From the IMG/VR virus record IMGVR_UViG_3300045988_088672: a DNA stretch of 55,246 bases. The stretch is one strand, 5' to 3'. Positions 4,911 through 11,173 of this stretch are shown here, in pieces (position 1 is the stretch's first letter; each line of letters starts with the position of its first letter). The stretch comes from a virus. The position numbers and the translations under genes are program-made. The notes beneath the pieces are model-generated. The model saw only the letters and a program-made list of their open reading frames with translations, searched no databases and was not told the origin of the DNA.

Positions 4911-5468
4911 ATGATGAAATGTAAATGGGCTGGAGACCCAAATGACGAATACTGTAAGAACTGTGACGGTGTGACAATGGATGTAGATGGCAATTCTATT
5001 TCTTGTTCAGAATGTGCCGGATATGAAGCCGGTACAGAAGAGGTAGATTCTACGCCGGATATGAATGAACCAATTCCGGATAAAGTAAAAGAATCATTGC
5101 CGATTGAAGAAGCAAAGAATGCTAAATCTGAGAACAATGAAAAACCGTCCAAAAACAACAAGTCTAACAACAATACACCTAAAGAAGAAAAACCGCTTAA
5201 ATCGAAAAATAACAAAGCCACAAAGGTAAAAGAAGAAAAGAAAGCCGTTGAGAAAACAGCTAAAGATGAAAATGGACAAGTAAAAGTTGTTTCCATGAGA
5301 TATACATCAGGCGCCACCATTAAGCGAAATGATAACTATTTCAAGTTTATTGCAGAAGAAGAATGGGATGTATCACAGGTGGATAATGTTGAGGACGTGA
5401 GAGGACAGCTCTGGGCGAAGTTGAATGGGGAGGTAGATAAACAGATTGAAGAATTACAAAATTTATAA
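4911..5468 (+). CDS. Hypothetical protein with Cys-rich N-terminus and Lys-rich low-complexity linker
   Basis: ORF track, 185 aa. Contains CKWAGDPNDEYCKNCDG...CSEC, then a K/N/E-rich tract. Confidence 0.55.
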   Translation: MMKCKWAGDPNDEYCKNCDGVTMDVDGNSISCSECAGYEAGTEEVDSTPDMNEPIPDKVKESLPIEEAKNAKSENNEKPSKNNKSNNNTPKEEKPLKSKNNKATKVKEEKKAVEKTAKDENGQVKVVSMRYTSGATIKRNDNYFKFIAEEEWDVSQVDNVEDVRGQLWAKLNGEVDKQIEELQNL

Positions 5469-5476
5469 ATTAAATC

Positions 5477-5505
5477 TTGTAATCTAAAAAATCTTGTGTT
5501 ATAAT
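5477..5505 (+). promoter_or_regulatory. Putative promoter (TTGTAA-17-TGT-TATAAT)
   Basis: TTGTAA 5477-5482, 17-bp spacer, TATAAT 5500-5505 preceded by TGT (extended -10). Confidence 0.55.
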
Positions 5506-5508
5506 ATA

Positions 5509-5655
5509 GTTGCGAGTTGAATAATACCTAATTTAATATATAACAAAAATATCCTTGTTATAAATAGGTGTACCTTTTCGTACACAACCAACTTTTTTAT
5601 TCAACTCGCAACTGATTAAAAAAGAAAGGTACATCTATTTATACCAAGGATTTTT
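5509..5655 (+). promoter_or_regulatory. Highly structured 5' leader of the initiator gene with nested and alternative helices
   Basis: A 16-bp perfect inverted repeat pairs GTTGCGAGTTGAATAA (5509-5524) with TTATTCAACTCGCAAC (5597-5612). An inner hairpin is GTGTAC-CTTTTC-GTACAC. A second imperfect ~28-nt complementarity joins 5545-5573 to 5628-5655 and reaches the SD region. Confidence 0.6.
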
Positions 5656-5673
5656 AATTGAAAGGAGAATTAA

Positions 5674-6507
5674 ATGATAAACAATGAAAATTATATAACA
5701 ATTCAGGGCTGGATGGTTAATGATTTAAAATTGAAAGGAAATGCTTTGATCATATATGCAACGATTTATGGATTTTCTCAAACCGCAGACTGTAAGTTTA
5801 CAGGAAGTGCTAATTATTTGGCGGAATGGTGTGGATGCTCCAGACAAACAATAATGACCACGCTTAATAAATTAGTTGTGGATAATTTAATCATAAAAAC
5901 CGAAGAATTTAAGAACAATGTTAAGTTCTGCTCCTACCATGTCAATTTGACAGGATGTAAAGATTCTTTACAGGGAGGTGTCAAAAAATTTGACAGGGGG
6001 GTGTCAAAAAATTTGACAGGGGGGTGTCAAAATTCTTTACACAATAATATAGATAAAAACAATAGAAATAAAACTATAGAAGATAATATAGATAAGAAAA
6101 ATTCTAAAAAGAAATCTAAGATTGATACTAAAATCGAATCAATAGAAAAGAAATGTTTAGAATATGATTTAGAAGATGATACTATAGAGCTTTTAAGTAG
6201 ATTTTTTAGAAATCTTTTAGAAAATCATAAAATGGTTACAGAGGATAAGGTAAATGCAATTTTAACGAAACTAGCAAAAGTAAACACAAAAACTCAGATA
6301 AATGCTATTCAGCTATCTCTTGATAATGGGTATATGAATATAGACCCGGAGTGGTTACAGAACAAAAACAATTCCTATAGTGGAACCGGTAAATGTTCAA
6401 AAGAACTATCCTGGAGAACACATGAAGAAATGGAAGAATCAGAAAAGAAAAGACAAGAATTTTTTGAAAAAGTAAGAAACAATGATTCATCAATACATCA
6501 TTTTTAA
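5674..6507 (+). CDS. Putative replication initiator / replisome organiser (N-terminal winged-helix)
   Basis: The N-terminal domain GNALIIYATIYGFSQ...GSANYLAEWCGCSRQTIMTTLNKLV is typical of phage and plasmid HTH replication proteins. The gene sits upstream of the DnaC-like and DnaB genes and contains iterons. Confidence 0.55.
   Translation: MINNENYITIQGWMVNDLKLKGNALIIYATIYGFSQTADCKFTGSANYLAEWCGCSRQTIMTTLNKLVVDNLIIKTEEFKNNVKFCSYHVNLTGCKDSLQGGVKKFDRGVSKNLTGGCQNSLHNNIDKNNRNKTIEDNIDKKNSKKKSKIDTKIESIEKKCLEYDLEDDTIELLSRFFRNLLENHKMVTEDKVNAILTKLAKVNTKTQINAIQLSLDNGYMNIDPEWLQNKNNSYSGTGKCSKELSWRTHEEMEESEKKRQEFFEKVRNNDSSIHHF
5977..6041 (+). repeat. Iteron array: 23-bp tandem repeat x2.8 (GGTGTCAAAAAATTTGACAGGGG) inside the initiator gene
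   Basis: Exact copies lie at 5977-5999 and 6000-6022, a partial copy at 6023-6041, and a short variant TGTCAATTTGACAGG at 5940-5954. Each unit holds the palindrome TGTCAAA/TTTGACA. The 23-bp period is not a multiple of 3. Confidence 0.85.
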
Positions 6508-6521
6508 AGGAGGAATATAAA

Positions 6522-6881
6522 ATGGCATATAAAGGAGCATATAAGGCTAAAGATGAGAAGTATCTGAAAGAATTGGTTTTGGGGTGTATAACTGATGAAC
6601 CTACAAGACTCAGTTCAGCTAAAATAGCAAATTACCTTGGCTTAAGTTCAAGGGACGTTCGCCTGCTAGTGCAAAAGTTAAGGGATGACGGATACCCAAT
6701 ATGTGCTACACCAGAACAAGGGTACTGGATGGCAAGAACAAGCTGGGATATGAATGATACAATGAGTAAGCTAAAATCACATATCGAAAACAGTACAGAT
6801 ACTTATAACTCGCTTGTTTATTGTCAAAATGTTTTAAAGCGAAAGGAAGGAAACAATGAATATACAGAATTGCTGGTATAA
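6522..6881 (+). CDS. Winged-helix DNA-binding protein
   Basis: SSAKIANYLGLSSRDVRLLVQKLRDDGYPI resembles an HTH_11-like wHTH. Confidence 0.45.
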   Translation: MAYKGAYKAKDEKYLKELVLGCITDEPTRLSSAKIANYLGLSSRDVRLLVQKLRDDGYPICATPEQGYWMARTSWDMNDTMSKLKSHIENSTDTYNSLVYCQNVLKRKEGNNEYTELLV

Positions 6882-7518
6882 AAGAATATGTACAGAAAAA
6901 TGTACGGAAAACTGCATAAGGTATAAGCTGATGTATTCATTATTCAAGCAATCTAATCTTCCCGAAGCATTGTGGAATTATAAAGAGCTGATGTGCCATG
7001 AAAAAGATTTGCAAGTTTATAAGAAATTACAAGCAAAATCAGATGCAATTTTGAATTTTATTGAAGAAGGCAATAACTTATACATCTACTCCGAAAACTG
7101 TGGAAATGGTAAGACAACATGGGCTATTAGATTGATGTATTCATACTTCGATAAGATATGGCATAAGAGTTGCTTTGACTGCAAAGCTTTGTTTGTCAGT
7201 GTTCCTAAATTTCTGTATAATTGCAAGCGTTCAATTTCGCAGGATGTAAAAGGCTTTGAAGAATTATGTAATCTTATTAGCGAGGTAGATTTTGTTATAT
7301 GGGATGATGTAGGGGAAATGAAAGCAAGTGACTACGAGCATCAGATATTATTCCAATATATTGATAATAGAATCAACTCCAAAAAGAGCAACATTTACAC
7401 AAGCAATAAGAATAAGGAACAGCTTGAAGATGTGTTGGGTGTAAGACTTGCAAGTCGGATATATAATTGTTCTGAGTGTATAGAATTTGTAGAAGAAGAT
7501 AAGAGAGGTAAATACTAA
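6856..7518 (+). CDS. DnaC/IstB-like AAA+ helicase loader
   Basis: Walker A GNGKTT and Walker B VIWDDVG are present. The gene sits immediately upstream of DnaB. Confidence 0.7.
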   Translation: MNIQNCWYKRICTEKCTENCIRYKLMYSLFKQSNLPEALWNYKELMCHEKDLQVYKKLQAKSDAILNFIEEGNNLYIYSENCGNGKTTWAIRLMYSYFDKIWHKSCFDCKALFVSVPKFLYNCKRSISQDVKGFEELCNLISEVDFVIWDDVGEMKASDYEHQILFQYIDNRINSKKSNIYTSNKNKEQLEDVLGVRLASRIYNCSECIEFVEEDKRGKY

Positions 7519-8789
7519 TGGTAGAATTACAGATAATAAACCGGGTATTAAAAGACAAAAATACTTCTCTATTAGATTTGAACGACATCACAAGAGACTA
7601 TTTTAATCAGTATCAAGAAGAATATGACTATATCATGGAACACAAACAGGAATATGGAAATGTGCCGGATTTGGAAACATTCATAGCAAAGTTCCAGGAT
7701 TTTGACGTGATCAATGTATCTGAAAGCACTGAATATCTTGTGAATACATTTAGAGAAGAATATCTATATTTTCAGTCGGTTCCGGTGCTTACGAAGATGG
7801 CGGAACTATTACAGACAGATGCATATTCCGCCGTTGATTACTTAAAATCAAAATTACCGGAATTAAAGATTGATGGGGCAGTAAAAGGGACAGATATCAT
7901 TTCACAAGCAAGGGAAAGACTTGAAGAGTGGAAAGAAACAAAAGATAATCAAGATACACACTTTATAGCAAGTGGATTTGAAGAGATTGATAACGACTTG
8001 GGGGGTTGGCATAAAGGAGAGGAATTAGTTGTTTTATTTGCACGAACTGGACAAGGAAAATCATGGGTGCTTATTAAAATGTTAGAACATGCATGGAAAG
8101 TATATCATGCAAGAGTAGGACTTTTAGAGCCTGAAATGTCAGCCAGTAAAACAGGATATAGATTTGATACTGTACATCAACATATATCATCTAAAGCACT
8201 GTATAAAGGCGAAGATGTGCAAGGTTATGAAAAATATATAAACAGGTTAGCTGATAATGGTACTCCGTTCTATGTTGCACATCCTAGAGATTTTCAAAAG
8301 AAAGTAACGGTATCAAAGTTAAAAAGTTGGTGCGAAAGTAACAAGTTGGATATGCTGGCAATAGATGGTATCTCTTATCTGCAGGATGAACGAGGAAAAA
8401 GGGGAGATAATAAAACAACACAGCTGACGAACATATCCGAAGATTTAATGCAATTAAGCATTGACTTAAAAATCCCAGTGCTGGTTGTTGTACAATCAAA
8501 CAGGGAAGGAACAATAAATGAAGATTTACAGCTTGAAAATATAAGAGACTCAGATGGAATTGCTTATAATGCGTCAATCGTTCTTTCAATTCAGCAAAAG
8601 GAAGAAGGCTTGCAGATACAAGATGTAAAAGCCCGAAATTCAAAAGTAGGAATAAAATGGGTTTATGCTTGGGATACAGATAAAGGAACATTTGATTATA
8701 TCCCTAACCCAGAAAAAGGAAAAGAAGATGATGAAAAAAGCGAAGATTTAAGGCGAAGATATCATGATAGAGAAAGTGAGGAATATTAA
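7518..8789 (+). CDS. dnaB: DnaB-family replicative helicase
   Basis: GFEEIDNDLGGWHKGEELVVLFARTGQGKSWVL (Walker A), DGISYL and VVVQSNREG follow the DnaB C-terminal RecA-fold pattern. Confidence 0.85.
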   Translation: MVELQIINRVLKDKNTSLLDLNDITRDYFNQYQEEYDYIMEHKQEYGNVPDLETFIAKFQDFDVINVSESTEYLVNTFREEYLYFQSVPVLTKMAELLQTDAYSAVDYLKSKLPELKIDGAVKGTDIISQARERLEEWKETKDNQDTHFIASGFEEIDNDLGGWHKGEELVVLFARTGQGKSWVLIKMLEHAWKVYHARVGLLEPEMSASKTGYRFDTVHQHISSKALYKGEDVQGYEKYINRLADNGTPFYVAHPRDFQKKVTVSKLKSWCESNKLDMLAIDGISYLQDERGKRGDNKTTQLTNISEDLMQLSIDLKIPVLVVVQSNREGTINEDLQLENIRDSDGIAYNASIVLSIQQKEEGLQIQDVKARNSKVGIKWVYAWDTDKGTFDYIPNPEKGKEDDEKSEDLRRRYHDRESEEY

Positions 8790-9084: not shown

Positions 9085-10128
9085 TTGATAAAACTACAAG
9101 ATACAATTATACAAACCGATACACAGTCTGTCTTGGATATGCTTAAATTTGATTTGGCACAGCATGGGGTTAATAGGTTTCATATTTTTAGAAACAATGG
9201 CGAAAATGTGCAAACGAATTGTCCTTTCCACAAGAACGGACAAGAACGAAAGCCGTCTTTCGGTGTAAATGGAGAAATTGATAAATGCCATTGCTTTGCT
9301 TGTGGCTGGGCTGGTACAATAGAGGAAATGATATCCGAATTATACGGATATAAAGATGAAGGAAAGTTTGGAAAACGGTGGCTTATAAAAAGATTTAATA
9401 CAGTAGAAATTGAAACAAGACCAAATATAATGGAGGGGTTTAATGGACGAGAAATCAATAAGCAAATATATACAAGAGAACCCGGAAAAATGGAGACGGT
9501 ATTTGTCAAAGATGGAGGAACACAACGAACAAAAAGCAAAGAGATTAAAGGAGGAACTGGAACAGTTACAGGAGAAAACGGAATCACAGAAGAAGAATTA
9601 GATAAATATAGATATATTCATCCTTATATGTATGAAAGAGGATTAACCGATGAAATTATAGAAAGGTTTGATATAGGATATGACAAAGAGCGAAAAGAGA
9701 TTACTTTCCCGGTCAAAGACATTGAAGGAAGATTTTTATTCATTGCAGGAAGAAGTGTCGAACGCAAATTTTTCAGACTCCCGAAAGATACGGATAAACC
9801 GTTGTATCAAGGATATAGATTTACGGATGGAAGTTATAAATACTGTTATATCACAGAATCTTTTTTGAATTGCTTGACTTGCTGGAAATATAATAAGCCG
9901 TCTATGGCTATGATAGGCACCGGAAATCAAAAACAATATGAAATATTGAATAAGTTGCCTGTGCGTGAATATATTCTTGCATTTGACCCGGACGAAGCTG
10001 GAAGAAAAGCAATAGAAAGATTTAGAAAGAATGTACATGGAAAGATTATAAAAGAACTTGTATATGCAGATAATCGTGATATAAATGACTTGCAAGAAGA
10101 ATTTTTGAAGTGCAAAATAATTTTTTAA
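9085..10128 (+). CDS. dnaG: DnaG-type DNA primase (CHC2 zinc finger + TOPRIM)
   Basis: CPFHKNGQERKPSFGVN...CHCFACGWAG is a CHC2 finger. AFDPDEAGRKA is the TOPRIM acidic motif. TTG start. Confidence 0.85.
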   Translation: MIKLQDTIIQTDTQSVLDMLKFDLAQHGVNRFHIFRNNGENVQTNCPFHKNGQERKPSFGVNGEIDKCHCFACGWAGTIEEMISELYGYKDEGKFGKRWLIKRFNTVEIETRPNIMEGFNGREINKQIYTREPGKMETVFVKDGGTQRTKSKEIKGGTGTVTGENGITEEELDKYRYIHPYMYERGLTDEIIERFDIGYDKERKEITFPVKDIEGRFLFIAGRSVERKFFRLPKDTDKPLYQGYRFTDGSYKYCYITESFLNCLTCWKYNKPSMAMIGTGNQKQYEILNKLPVREYILAFDPDEAGRKAIERFRKNVHGKIIKELVYADNRDINDLQEEFLKCKIIF

Positions 10129-10601: not shown

Positions 10602-10702
10602 GAGATAGTAGTCAAGTGGTTAAGACACTCGGGGATGCAGAATAATCGTAAACATTAAAAGCGATACTCCAGGAGACATAGGTTCAAATCCTATCTATCT
10701 CA
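10602..10702 (+). tRNA. tRNA-like gene with canonical acceptor, D and T arms but a ~45-nt anticodon arm (isotype undetermined)
   Basis: Acceptor GAGATAG/CTATCTC plus discriminator A. D arm GTC-AAGTGGTTAA-GAC. T arm ATAGG-TTCAAAT-CCTAT. About 45 nt lie between position 26 and the variable loop instead of 17. Confidence 0.5.
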
Positions 10703-10879
10703 AGCGAGGTATGACGGACTACCCCAGACCCAAGTAATTAGTAAAAACAGTAAATGAACCTAGGATAGTTTGCTTAGTATGAAAATTATAGCTCCGATTA
10801 TAATCTATATTAGTGAGGTTGAGAGGTGGAATGAGGGGCTAATGACGATTAGCTAAGTAGCTAATATGGATTATATTAT

Positions 10880-10951
10880 AGCCCTATCGCCAAAAGGTAA
10901 GGCACAGGACTTTGATTCCTGCATTTGTTGGTTCGAATCCAACTAGGGCTG
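10880..10951 (+). tRNA. tRNA-Gln (anticodon TTG)
   Basis: Hand-folded cloverleaf: acceptor AGCCCTA/TAGGGCT, anticodon stem CAGGA/TCCTG, loop CTTTGAT, T arm GTTGG-TTCGAAT-CCAAC. Length 72 nt. Confidence 0.85.
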
Positions 10952-11099
10952 TGATACCCTGGCAGACAAAAAAGTAAAGGACCGGATATTCGAAATGCGT
11001 TCATTGGGGTATCATTAAGATAAACAGGAATAAAGCTGGGAATACTGTTTTCTGAAAAACTTACCATGAGGGAAGACATAGGTTCTTCCCTCGAATTAA

Positions 11100-11173
11100 G
11101 GAAGATTAGTTCAGTTGGTGAGAGCATCCGGCTCATAACCGGAAAGTCGTAGGTTCGAATCCTACATCTTCCA
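11100..11173 (+). tRNA. tRNA-Met (anticodon CAT; elongator type, or Ile2 if lysidine-modified)
   Basis: Acceptor GGAAGAT/ATCTTCC, D arm GTTC-AGTTGGTGA-GAGC, anticodon stem TCCGG/CCGGA, loop CTCATAA, T arm GTAGG-TTCGAAT-CCTAC. Confidence 0.85.

What the first reader, a model, noticed from the sequence alone, without database searches (positions are those of the whole stretch)
5940..6150. Iteron array followed by an AT-rich tract inside the initiator gene: a lambda-O-style origin
A 23-bp unit GGTGTCAAAAAATTTGACAGGGG is repeated head-to-tail at 5977-5999 and 6000-6022. There is a partial third copy at 6023-6041 and a short variant at 5940-5954.
- Each unit contains the palindrome TGTCAAA/TTTGACA.
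- Because 23 is not a multiple of 3, the repeat is read in three different frames (GVKKFDRG / VSKNLTGG / CQNSL). The conservation is therefore at the DNA level, not the protein level.
- Immediately downstream (6042-6150) the DNA is extremely AT-rich. It encodes a low-complexity N/K linker between two halves of the protein.

Iterons plus an AT-rich unwinding region embedded in the initiator ORF is the known arrangement of lambda ori within gene O.
Basis: partly seen in the sequence, partly recalled or inferred. Interest (0 to 1): 0.6.

Follow-up and report, generated by a model that had tools for sequence, protein, structure and literature searches.

The report
Phage replication origin inside initiator gene
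A gut phage carries its probable replication origin, five binding-site repeats followed by an easily melted AT-rich stretch, inside the gene for the protein predicted to bind them; this layout is already known from lambda, SPP1 and staphylococcal plasmids, so it is a well-supported but ordinary find.

Summary
Window 5940-6041 holds five dyad-symmetric units. Four lie at a strict 23-bp period (5953, 5976, 5999, 6022), preceded by a shorter dyad at 5940. The motif occurs nowhere else in this 55-kb circular phage genome. An AT-rich tract (GC 0.18) follows at 6042-6150.

Both elements lie in the 277-aa ORF 5674-6507. They encode its predicted disordered linker, between an N-terminal winged helix (Pfam HTH_36) and a DnaD-like helical C-domain. 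A DnaC-like loader, a DnaB helicase and a primase follow.

Comparison with about 100 related loci supports an origin:
- The array and AT tract are the most conserved DNA in the gene, including third codon positions.
- Distant relatives (Bacteroides and Flavobacterium phages, a Lachnospira eligens plasmid) keep the position, a 20-24-bp period, G-rich spacers and a following AATAATATAGA motif.
- The dyad core changes together with the recognition helix of the N-domain, not with the downstream HTH protein.

This is the lambda O / SPP1 gp38 / pSK41 Rep arrangement, so a new member of a known kind. No binding or replication was tested.

A side observation: nine related contigs lack one unit, which splits the gene.

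The parts
5477..5505 (+). Promoter-like site (TTGTAA-17-TATAAT with TG) that probably drives the replication operon, so the origin would be transcribed through.
   Evidence: Best promoter match in 5300-6700 (10 of 12, extended -10). The number of promoter-like sites in the region is not above chance (8 found against 7.4 expected).
5674..6507 (+). Initiator / replisome-organizer gene, 277 aa.
   Evidence: ORF. Pfam HTH_36 at aa 19-68. PHROG 6969, 678 (O-like) and 186 (DnaD-like). 1208 homologues. Foldseek hits to DnaD 9a5c_B (E 6.9e-5), to viral replisome organizers and to a protein annotated as having a lambda GpO N-terminal domain.
5701..5943 (+). N-terminal winged helix-turn-helix domain (aa 10-90), with the recognition helix at about aa 57-69. 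It is the presumed iteron-binding domain.
   Evidence: AF2 model: helices 10-17, 22-34, 46-53 and 57-69, and strands 73-80 and 83-90, with block-mean pLDDT mostly 71-88. Foldseek hits to MarR/PadR winged helices and to the RepA_N initiators 4pql and 4pt7. The helix sequence co-varies with the iteron core.
5940..5952 (.). Unit 0: the short dyad TGTCAA-T-TTGACA, with its centre 18 bp upstream of the centre of unit 1.
   Evidence: A dyad is present but variable in close relatives.
5953..5975 (.). Iteron unit 1 (GGA TGTAAAGATTCTTTACA GGGA), a degenerate copy.
   Evidence: the repeat finder D1, in register at 23 bp. Dyad hit at 5956.
5976..5998 (.). Iteron unit 2 (dyad TGTCAAAAAATTTGACA at 5979-5995, with G-rich spacer).
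5999..6021 (.). Iteron unit 3, with the same dyad core as unit 2 (TGTCAAAAAATTTGACA at 6002-6018).
6022..6041 (.). Iteron unit 4 (GGG TGTCAAAATTCTTTACA), which abuts the AT-rich tract.
6042..6150 (.). AT-rich tract, the presumed DNA-unwinding element. It holds two copies of ATAATATAGATA, at 6044 and 6083.
   Evidence: GC 0.18. The 12-mer occurs only at these two places in the genome. Third-position identity among 16 relatives is 0.93. The AATAATATA motif directly after the array is conserved at codon level in 21 of 31 non-redundant relatives.
6118..6363 (+). C-terminal helical domain (aa 149-230), presumed to recruit the helicase or its loader.
   Evidence: AF2 helices 149-163, 168-183, 190-201, 205-218 and 225-230, with block-mean pLDDT 81-90. 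PHROG 186 'DnaD-like helicase loader' covers aa 3-270. The domain is exchanged as a module among relatives.
6421..6504 (+). C-terminal helix and tail ending in ...HHF. The terminal Phe is nearly invariant.
   Evidence: AF2 helix 250-268. F277 is nearly invariant in alignment A1. The tail is retained in relatives with a different N-domain, in some of which (L024-L027) the central domain differs too.
6522..6881 (+). Small HTH_11 protein of 119 aa. It is part of the replication module but is not the iteron binder.
   Evidence: Pfam HTH_11. It does not co-vary with iteron type.
6856..7518 (+). DnaC/IstB-like helicase loader.
   Evidence: Pfam IstB_IS21 and Bac_DnaA; PHROG 50 at 1.4e-38.
7518..8789 (+). 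DnaB-like replicative helicase.
   Evidence: Pfam DnaB_C at 1.4e-24; PHROG 19 at 8.6e-50.
9085..10128 (+). DnaG-type primase.
   Evidence: Pfam Toprim_2 and Zn_ribbon_DnaG; PHROG 47 at 1.7e-35.

Best explanation
Window 5940-6150 is the phage's theta-type replication origin, embedded in the gene of its own initiator.

Proposed mechanism, all steps inferred:
1. Dimers of the initiator's N-terminal winged helix bind the dyad-symmetric iterons. Each iterone has arms TGT(C/A)AA converging on an A/T tract, and the four full units are spaced 23 bp apart.
2. The resulting nucleoprotein complex bends the DNA and stresses the adjacent AT-rich tract, which carries the AATAATATAGA motifs and melts.
3. The initiator's DnaD-like C-terminal domain and tail recruit the phage DnaC-like loader and DnaB helicase encoded just downstream. 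The primase follows.
4. Transcription of the gene through the origin may help opening, as it does in lambda.

What the data show directly is the anatomy, conservation at the DNA level, co-variation of iteron core with the N-domain, and the modular gene structure.
For: 1. The dyad motif is unique to this place and far above chance.

2. The host ORF is an initiator-type protein, placed directly upstream of the loader, helicase and primase.

3. The iterons and AT tract encode a segment predicted to be disordered (aa 95-146, pLDDT below 50). Yet they are the most conserved DNA in the gene among 16 relatives.
- Nucleotide identity is 0.91-0.97 at 5956-6150.
- Third-position identity is 0.87 and 0.93, against 0.72 and 0.74 in the folded domains.

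4. The 23-bp period puts successive units in different reading frames, so the repeat is not a protein repeat.

5. Most of the roughly 60 further loci examined carry a dyad array of period 20-24 bp (or a 42-45-bp double unit), 263-394 nt into the gene. The set includes Bacteroides phages B40-8 and BF344P1, Flavobacterium phage FCV-1 and a Lachnospira eligens 60-kb plasmid. The arrays have G-rich spacers and are followed by (C/T)TAATAATATAGA.

6. About ten recognition-helix classes each go with their own dyad core. The neighbouring HTH_11 protein does not co-vary.

7. Relatives with an unrelated or very divergent N-domain but the same C-terminal part carry different iterons at the same place. 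L020 has four units at 23 bp; L024-L027 have a 15-bp period.

8. AATAATATA after the array is fixed at codon level. ATA is used 21 of 21 times against 49% elsewhere (p = 5e-7). AAT is used 42 of 42 times against 76% elsewhere (p = 2e-5).

9. Experimentally established precedents have the same layout.
- Lambda: ori lies in the middle of gene O, with iterons plus an AT-rich tract (PMC7466680).
- SPP1: oriL lies within gene 38, with direct repeats plus an unwinding element (PMC6316719).
- pSK41: four Rep boxes lie centrally in rep, and the linker they encode is dispensable. The pPR9 initiator, with a PF13730 N-domain and its own origin, supports replication (PMC5703833).
- RepA_N iterons are inverted repeats converging on a poly-A tract (PMC7145576).
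Against: - No experiment or read-depth profile was available, so neither binding nor origin firing is shown.
- GC skew is uninformative, because all genes are on one strand and the skew is monotonic.
- The higher synonymous-site conservation could partly reflect recent recombination, since the region is a mosaic junction.
- The codon test uses sequences that are not fully independent.
- The protein misses the lambda O (PF04492) and RepA_N (PF06970) Pfam models at E 0.01.
- The C-domain has no significant Pfam or PDB sequence match, so its role in helicase recruitment rests on fold and PHROG similarity and on gene order.
- An equally AT-rich intergenic region lies 200 bp upstream (5452-5551, GC 0.16).
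Confidence: 0.8

Rival explanations
1. The array is only an autoregulatory operator or roadblock. The initiator binds inside its own gene to throttle transcription, and replication starts elsewhere, for example in the AT-rich intergenic region at 5452-5551.
For: - Iterons in other replicons also serve in autoregulation (established knowledge of iteron plasmids).
- The upstream intergenic region is as AT-rich (GC 0.16) and carries long inverted repeats.
- The iterons contain perfect TTGACA hexamers.
Against: - The upstream region holds no copy of the dyad and is poorly conserved among close relatives (identity 0.58-0.79 over most of it).
- The conserved AT motif always directly abuts the array across very distant relatives. 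An unwinding element explains that; an operator does not.
- Promoter-like sites in the region are not above chance.
- In all experimentally studied systems with this layout, the intragenic repeats are the origin (PMC7466680, PMC6316719, PMC5703833).
Confidence: 0.08
2. The array binds the initiator but acts as a secondary site rather than the firing origin. It could be a fork-arrest or replication-mode switch site, as proposed for SPP1 oriR, or an incompatibility or handcuffing site.
For: SPP1 gp38 bound to a second iteron set is proposed to stall forks and trigger the switch to rolling-circle replication (PMC6316719).
Against: - It is the only such array in the genome, so there is no other candidate primary origin with these iterons.
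- It has the adjacent AT-rich element expected of a firing origin.
Confidence: 0.07
3. The repeat is a protein-level or slippage-generated low-complexity repeat with no function as DNA, and the AT richness is only linker composition.
For: - The segment encodes a low-complexity, predicted-disordered linker.
- Unit number varies among relatives.
Against: - The 23-bp period gives three different peptide readings.
- Each unit keeps dyad symmetry.
- Synonymous sites are more conserved here than in the folded domains.
- The core co-varies with the DNA-binding helix.
- Codon choice in the AATAATATA motif is fixed.
Confidence: 0.02

Closest known systems
Bacteriophage lambda ori within gene O (O protein, P loader)
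   Same: - Four main iterons, each with internal dyad symmetry and G tracts, followed by an AT-rich tract.
- All of it lies in the middle of the initiator gene, between an N-terminal origin-binding part and a C-terminal part that recruits the helicase loader.
- Iteron number varies among relatives: four in lambda, six in Stx phages (PMC7466680).
   Different: - No significant match to the lambda O Pfam family.
- The C-domain is DnaD-like.
- The partner loader is DnaC/IstB-like rather than P.
- The host is probably a gut Clostridia species, not E. coli.
- The unit period is 23 bp and is not kept in frame.
Staphylococcal RepA_N plasmids (pSK41 Rep) and the chimeric pPR9 initiator
   Same: - pSK41 has four Rep boxes centrally within rep. 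The central region they encode is a dispensable linker. The N-domain is a winged helix and the C-domain is partner-specific.
- RepA_N iterons are inverted repeats converging on a poly-A tract.
- pPR9 has a PF13730 (HTH_36) N-domain plus its own origin, swapped in as a module, and it replicates (PMC5703833, PMC7145576).
- Foldseek finds the RepA_N initiator structures 4pql and 4pt7.
   Different: - The element here is a phage, not a plasmid.
- There is no RepA_N Pfam match.
- I did not compare the window protein with pPR9 Rep directly. pPR9 did not appear among the four plasmid hits, so any relationship is distant.
- The pSK41 C-domain binds host DnaG, whereas this phage brings its own loader, helicase and primase.
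Bacillus phage SPP1 gp38 and oriL
   Same: - The origin consists of direct repeats plus an AT-rich unwinding element, positioned within the initiator gene.
- The loader (gp39) and DnaB-type helicase (gp40) are encoded next to it (PMC6316719).
- The gene order is the same as in the window.
   Different: - SPP1 has a second origin (oriR), whereas only one array is found here.
- No direct sequence comparison with gp38 was made. Similarity is at the level of architecture and of PHROG and Foldseek 'replisome organizer' hits.
Lachnospira ([Eubacterium]) eligens ATCC 27750 60-kb plasmid NC_012782.1
   Same: - A homologous initiator: 43% identity over aa 2-134.
- Intragenic dyad repeats (GAGTAAAAAAACTTTAC) at the same position.
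- The same neighbouring genes: an upstream DEAD-box helicase, then the initiator, an ATPase loader and a DnaB helicase.
   Different: - The iteron core and spacing differ.
- The AT motif is weaker (AATAAAGATAG...GATAATATAGAA).
- The gene is annotated only as a 'helix-turn-helix domain-containing protein', and I found no described origin.

Membership tests
Lambda-type origin embedded in the initiator gene (functional class) | Several direct repeats with internal dyad symmetry, lying inside the initiator ORF between its DNA-binding and recruiting domains. | tested here: met
   Five dyads at 5940-6041, four of them at a 23-bp period, encode aa 90-123 between the winged helix (aa 10-90) and the helical C-domain (aa 149-230).
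Lambda-type origin embedded in the initiator gene (functional class) | An AT-rich unwinding tract directly flanking the last iteron. | tested here: met
   GC is 0.18 at 6050-6149. The tract begins at 6042, directly after unit 4. The AATAATATAGA motif is conserved in relatives.
Lambda-type origin embedded in the initiator gene (functional class) | The initiator binds the iterons specifically. | not testable with these tools
   There is only indirect support: the iteron core co-varies with the recognition helix in about ten classes, and not with the adjacent HTH_11 protein.
Lambda-type origin embedded in the initiator gene (functional class) | Replication initiates at this site. | not testable with these tools
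   GC skew is uninformative.
Lambda O protein family (Pfam Phage_rep_O, PF04492) | Significant match to the family model. | tested here: not met
   A Pfam scan at E up to 0.01 returned only HTH_36. Similarity appears only at remote level: PHROG 678 'O-like' at 4e-14, and a Foldseek hit to a protein annotated 'lambda GpO N-terminal' at E 2.2e-5.
RepA_N initiators (Pfam PF06970) | Significant match to the RepA_N domain model. | tested here: not met
   Not among the Pfam hits. There is structural similarity to 4pql and 4pt7, but only at Foldseek E of about 0.01.
RepA_N initiators (Pfam PF06970) | [quoted passage not shown] | tested here: met
   The dyad TGTCAAAAAATTTGACA lies at 5979 and 6002. 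The family feature is described in PMC7145576 and PMC5703833.
PF13730 (HTH_36) initiators with an intragenic origin (pPR9 type) | An HTH_36 N-terminal domain above the Pfam gathering score. | tested here: met
   33.3 bits against a cut-off of 25, at aa 19-68.
PF13730 (HTH_36) initiators with an intragenic origin (pPR9 type) | The N-domain and origin travel together as one exchangeable module joined to a conserved C-domain. | tested here: met
   Relatives P0058, P0068, L020 and L024-L027 share the C-terminal part but have other N-domains and other iterons.
DnaD-like replisome organizers | Two-domain architecture: an N-terminal winged helix plus a C-terminal helical domain, similar to DnaD. | tested here: inconclusive
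   PHROG 186 'DnaD-like helicase loader' matches at 1.8e-11 over aa 3-270. The top Foldseek PDB hit is DnaD 9a5c_B at E 6.9e-5, but with TM 0.24-0.28. There is no significant sequence match in PDB or Pfam for the C-domain.

The most novel reading that the evidence does not exclude
Because the iteron unit is 23 bp, which is not divisible by 3, gain or loss of one unit by replication slippage would act as a frequent, reversible frameshift switch in an essential gene. Nine related contigs with one unit fewer encode the DNA-binding domain and the recruiting domain as two overlapping ORFs. These contigs are polyphyletic, and one of them is identical in the N- and C-domain segments compared to a four-unit contig. 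If this is real, then either a split initiator still works, or origin copy-number slippage switches phage replication off and on in the manner of phase variation.
Probability: 0.12. Interest if true: 0.65.

Novelty: new member of a known kind. Interest (0 to 1): 0.35.

Why it matters
The finding gives a precise, testable origin for a family of uncultured gut phages of about 55 kb. By extension it does the same for a large family of HTH_36 initiators: 1208 homologues in the protein search and 363 IMG/VR stretches. That family includes the isolated Bacteroides phages B40-8 and BF344P1, Flavobacterium phage FCV-1 and a Lachnospira eligens plasmid. In the GenBank records I read, the phage genes are annotated as hypothetical proteins and the plasmid gene only as a helix-turn-helix protein.

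The paired table of recognition helix against iteron core is a ready-made specificity code for this winged-helix family. It could also help build replicons or shuttle vectors for gut anaerobes.

The codon-level conservation of AATAATATAGA next to the iterons, across phages of two bacterial phyla, suggests a sequence-specific step in origin opening or helicase loading, not mere AT richness.

Tried and rejected
- **GC and AT skew.** Cumulative skew over the whole circular genome is monotonic, because all genes are on one strand. It says nothing about the origin.
- **Nucleotide search of phage records.** No match, so relatives were reached through protein searches only.
- **PDB sequence searches.** Neither the single sequence nor the profile gave a significant hit. 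B. subtilis DnaB at E 1.9 is not evidence.
- **Pfam on the C-domain alone.** Nothing significant.
- **Rfam.** Only three tRNAs; nothing in the origin or in the upstream leader.
- **Promoter scan.** The TTGACA hexamers in the iterons do not form a convincing promoter, and counts equal chance. I therefore rejected an internal-promoter reading.
- **Downstream HTH_11 protein as the iteron binder.** Rejected, because the same protein variant (87-92% identity) accompanies four different iteron types.
- **Weaver et al. 2009, PMC2652615.** Not held, so I cited the RepA_N literature through PMC5703833 and PMC7145576.
- **Frameshifting in the three-unit variants.** I considered a +1 ribosomal shift or transcriptional slippage on the A6 run as a way to restore the fused protein. 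Re-pairing is possible on paper, but there is no stimulator and the run is short, so I left it as speculation.
Full report
**The observation**

The region was read directly. The unit GGTGTCAAAAAATTTGACAGGGG lies at 5977-5999 and is repeated exactly at 6000-6022.

The array therefore has four units at a strict 23-bp period, with dyad centres at 5964, 5987, 6010 and 6033. A shorter dyad, TGTCAA-T-TTGACA, lies at 5940-5952.

The array is far above chance:
- It has by far the highest Tandem Repeats Finder score in the window, 119.
- The degenerate dyad TGT[CA]AA-N(1-7)-TT[GT]ACA occurs at these five places and nowhere else in 55,246 bases. The mean in shuffles is 0.3 and the maximum 2.

Directly after unit 4 the DNA drops to GC 0.18 (6050-6149) against 0.346 for the genome. 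Set against the ORF map, window 6029-6128 is the only one of the seven lowest-GC 100-bp windows that lies inside a long ORF. The tract holds two copies of ATAATATAGATA, at 6044 and 6083, and this 12-mer is found nowhere else in the genome.

**Context**

The first 99 bases of the window recur at its end, so the window is a complete circular assembly of a phage of about 55.1 kb. All long ORFs are on the + strand. The large terminase is closest to those of human-faecal phages and of Blautia and Clostridium phages, so the host is probably a gut member of the Clostridia.

The repeats lie in ORF 5674-6507 (277 aa). Evidence on this protein:
- Pfam finds HTH_36 (PF13730) at aa 19-68.
- PHROGs finds families 6969, 678 ('replication initiation O-like', 4e-14) and 186 ('DnaD-like helicase loader', 1.8e-11, covering aa 3-270).

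The genes that follow are a small HTH_11 protein (6522-6881), a DnaC/IstB-like loader (6856-7518), a DnaB-like helicase (7518-8789) and a DnaG-type primase (9085-10128).

**Structure of the protein**

An AlphaFold2 model built on a 20-sequence alignment shows three parts:
- a winged helix at aa 10-90;
- a segment with pLDDT below 50 at aa 95-146;
- a helical domain at aa 149-230 and a final helix at aa 250-268.

The iterons and AT tract (nt 5940-6150) encode aa 90-159. That is essentially the segment predicted to be disordered.

Foldseek against the PDB ranks full-length DnaD first (9a5c_B, E 6.9e-5). It also lists many MarR/PadR winged helices and the RepA_N plasmid initiators 4pql and 4pt7. 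Against viral models it finds proteins annotated as replisome organizer, replication initiation protein, replication initiator A and lambda GpO N-terminal domain. Sequence searches of the PDB gave nothing significant, and the C-domain alone has no Pfam match.

**Close relatives: conservation as DNA**

The protein has 1208 homologues in the large protein collection. I aligned the gene from the window with 15 close relatives (about 75-89% protein identity; loci).
- Mean pairwise nucleotide identity peaks at 0.91-0.97 across 5956-6150. It is higher there than in either folded domain.
- At third codon positions, identity is 0.72 in the N-domain, 0.87 in the iterons, 0.93 in the AT tract and 0.74 in the C-domain.

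A disordered linker that is the most conserved DNA in the gene, synonymous sites included, points to selection on the DNA itself. One caveat applies: the region is also a recombination junction, which could inflate identity.

**Distant relatives: same architecture, different iteron sequence**

tblastn against phage records found the N-domain in Bacteroides phages (BF344P1, B40-8), Flavobacterium phage FCV-1 and a rodent-gut virus. In each, a dyad-containing array lies about 280-360 nt into the homologous gene. The period is 23-24 bp in the three that Tandem Repeats Finder detected; the FCV-1 repeats are seen by eye. The dyad core differs in each:
- GGTGAAAATCACC in the Bacteroides phages;
- GTTCAC...GTGAAC in the rodent-gut virus;
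- GTGCAGAAACTGCAC in FCV-1.

In each case the array is followed at once by TAATAATATAGA-type sequence.

A profile-guided scan of IMG/VR returned 363 related stretches, of which 80 loci were kept. Of the roughly 60 loci I had not already examined, most have a dyad array of period 20-24 bp, or a 42-45-bp double unit, located 263-394 nt after the start codon. The arrays have G-rich spacers and the AT motif follows. The exceptions are one locus with an aberrant match (L058) and two groups in which Tandem Repeats Finder reported only the AT-motif repeat or nothing. The dyads in those two groups are visible by eye.

I then sorted the loci by the sequence aligned to the recognition helix. About ten helix classes each go with their own dyad core. 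Examples:
- CGCSRQT..T.LNKL with TGTCAAAAAATTTGACA;
- CNCSRQSISTILKKL with TGTAAAGAAACTTTACA;
- CNSTKNGIQKNLKKL with TACAACAGAGTTGTA;
- TNSTKQ...LKSL with TTAAACAAAGTTTAA;
- LNTSRQTARLVVKRL with GGCGAAAATCACC.

The neighbouring HTH_11 protein does not follow the iterons. The window's variant (87-92% identity) accompanies four different iteron types, and the TGTCAAA type accompanies HTH_11 variants of only 29-59% identity. The iterons therefore track the N-domain of the protein that their own gene encodes.

**Modularity**

Some relatives share the C-terminal part at 84-96% identity but have a very divergent or unrelated N-domain (P0058, P0068, L020, L024-L027). They carry other repeats at the same place:
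- L020 has four 23-bp units with an AAGGAATCCTT core.
- L024-L027 have GTAGAAAATCTAC-type units at a 15-bp period.

This is the exchange pattern known for lambdoid O genes and for the pPR9 / pSK41 chimera.

**The AT motif is more than AT richness**

I made a set of 31 genes that is non-redundant at below 80% identity in the first 90 residues. In this set, 21 genes have Asn-Asn-Ile right after the array.
- All 21 Ile codons are ATA, against 49% ATA elsewhere in the same genes (Fisher p = 5e-7).
- All 42 Asn codons are AAT, against 76% elsewhere (p = 2e-5).

The sequences are not phylogenetically independent, so the p-values are only indicative. Still, the result suggests that AATAATATA(G) is selected as DNA.

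**Comparison with known systems**

| System | Layout | Source |
|---|---|---|
| Lambda | The origin lies in the middle of gene O, with four iterons plus an AT-rich tract. Stx phages have six iterons. Two iterons plus the AT tract suffice for unwinding. | PMC7466680 |
| SPP1 | oriL consists of direct repeats plus an AT-rich unwinding element, and lies within gene 38, whose product binds it. The loader gp39 and helicase gp40 act with it. | PMC6316719 |
| pSK41 | The Rep N-domain binds four Rep boxes centrally within rep. The central region encoded by the origin is a dispensable linker. The C-domain binds DnaG. | PMC5703833 |
| pPR9 | A PF13730 N-domain together with its origin replaces the RepA_N module, and it supports autonomous replication. 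| PMC5703833 |
| RepA_N plasmids | The iterons are semi-palindromic repeats whose arms converge on a poly-A tract. | PMC7145576 |

The element here fits this functional class in every feature I could test. It does not reach the Pfam models of lambda O or RepA_N. I therefore file it as an HTH_36-type initiator with an intragenic origin that works like lambda O, not as a member of the O family.

A further homologue sits on the 60-kb circular plasmid of Lachnospira eligens ATCC 27750. It has its own intragenic repeats and the same neighbouring genes. In the GenBank records the phage homologues are annotated as hypothetical proteins and the plasmid homologue only as a helix-turn-helix protein. A term search of the phiB124-14 paper, which covers B40-8, found no mention of iterons or direct repeats.

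**Rival readings**

- *Operator only, with the true origin in the AT-rich intergenic region at 5452-5551.* This is unlikely. That region has no dyad copy and is poorly conserved. It looks like a promoter plus a structured leader.
- *Secondary binding site, as with SPP1 oriR.* This is possible, but there is no other array in the genome.
- *Protein-level repeat.* This is excluded by the three reading frames, the dyad symmetry and the synonymous-site conservation.

**A side finding**

Because 23 is not divisible by 3, a change of one unit shifts the reading frame. Nine contigs from different samples and assemblers carry one unit fewer than their relatives (L028, L029 and L110-L117 except L113). 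In them the gene is split into a 115-117-aa HTH_36 ORF that overlaps a 152-182-aa ORF starting inside the array.

These contigs are polyphyletic. L116, with three units, is identical over the N- and C-domain segments compared to L013, which has four. One protein cluster of the short form has at least six members on contigs of 53-57 kb. Several other contigs end inside the array.

In the TACAAC class the units alternate between 22 and 23 bp, so a pair makes 45 bp. An array with two extra units therefore stays in frame (L017 against L015).

I could not decide whether the split forms are real slippage variants or assembler collapse of the exact 46-nt tandem.

**Verdict**

The arrangement is a known kind. 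Binding and origin firing remain to be shown experimentally.

Noticed in passing
L028, L029, L110, L111, L112, L114, L115, L116, L117 (array region of each); corresponds to window 5953-6041: Nine related contigs have one iteron unit fewer, which frameshifts the initiator into two overlapping ORFs: an N-terminal HTH_36 ORF of 115-117 aa and a C-terminal ORF of 152-182 aa that starts inside the array. The variants are polyphyletic, and L116 equals L013 apart from the missing unit. Whether this is real slippage or assembly collapse is unresolved.
   Followed up: partly
L021, L023/L046, L051, L052, L053 (contig ends): Several IMG/VR contigs begin or end inside the iteron array. One circularly permuted contig (3300045988_125416) is cut exactly there. 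This suggests that the array breaks assemblies, or that it is heterogeneous in the populations sampled.
   Followed up: no
window 5477-5673: The leader upstream of the initiator gene has a strong promoter-like site (TTGTAA-17-TGnTATAAT at 5477-5505). It is followed by two interleaved inverted repeats (5508-5524 with 5597-5613, 17 nt perfect; 5547-5577 with 5625-5655, 31 nt at 90%) that cannot both form. This could be a regulatory leader, comparable to the antisense-controlled rep leader of pSK41. There is no Rfam match.
   Followed up: partly
window 6044-6056 and 6083-6095; relatives L002, L004, L069, L072, L074: The motif (A)ATAATATAGA(T/A) directly after the iterons is itself repeated two to four times in many relatives, and it is conserved from Flavobacterium and Bacteroides phages to this Clostridia-type phage. 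Codon choice in it is fixed (ATA 21 of 21, AAT 42 of 42).
   Followed up: yes
window 6496-6504 (last residues ...HHF): Most aligned homologues end in an aromatic residue; the terminal Phe is nearly invariant. It is often preceded by His or Lys, and the tail is kept even when the N-domain is swapped, and in L024-L027 when the central domain differs as well. This may be a docking motif for the loader or helicase.
   Followed up: no
L113 (NC_012782.1, 54708-60094): The 60-kb 'plasmid' of Lachnospira eligens ATCC 27750 has the same replication module: a DEAD-box helicase, a MerR-type regulator, an HTH initiator with intragenic repeats, an ATPase loader and a DnaB helicase. It matches a whole group of IMG/VR viral contigs (L095-L109), so it may be a phage-plasmid.
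   Followed up: partly
window 10602-11173: Rfam finds three tRNA genes. The first match (10602-10702) spans 101 nt, which is unusually long for a tRNA.
   Followed up: no
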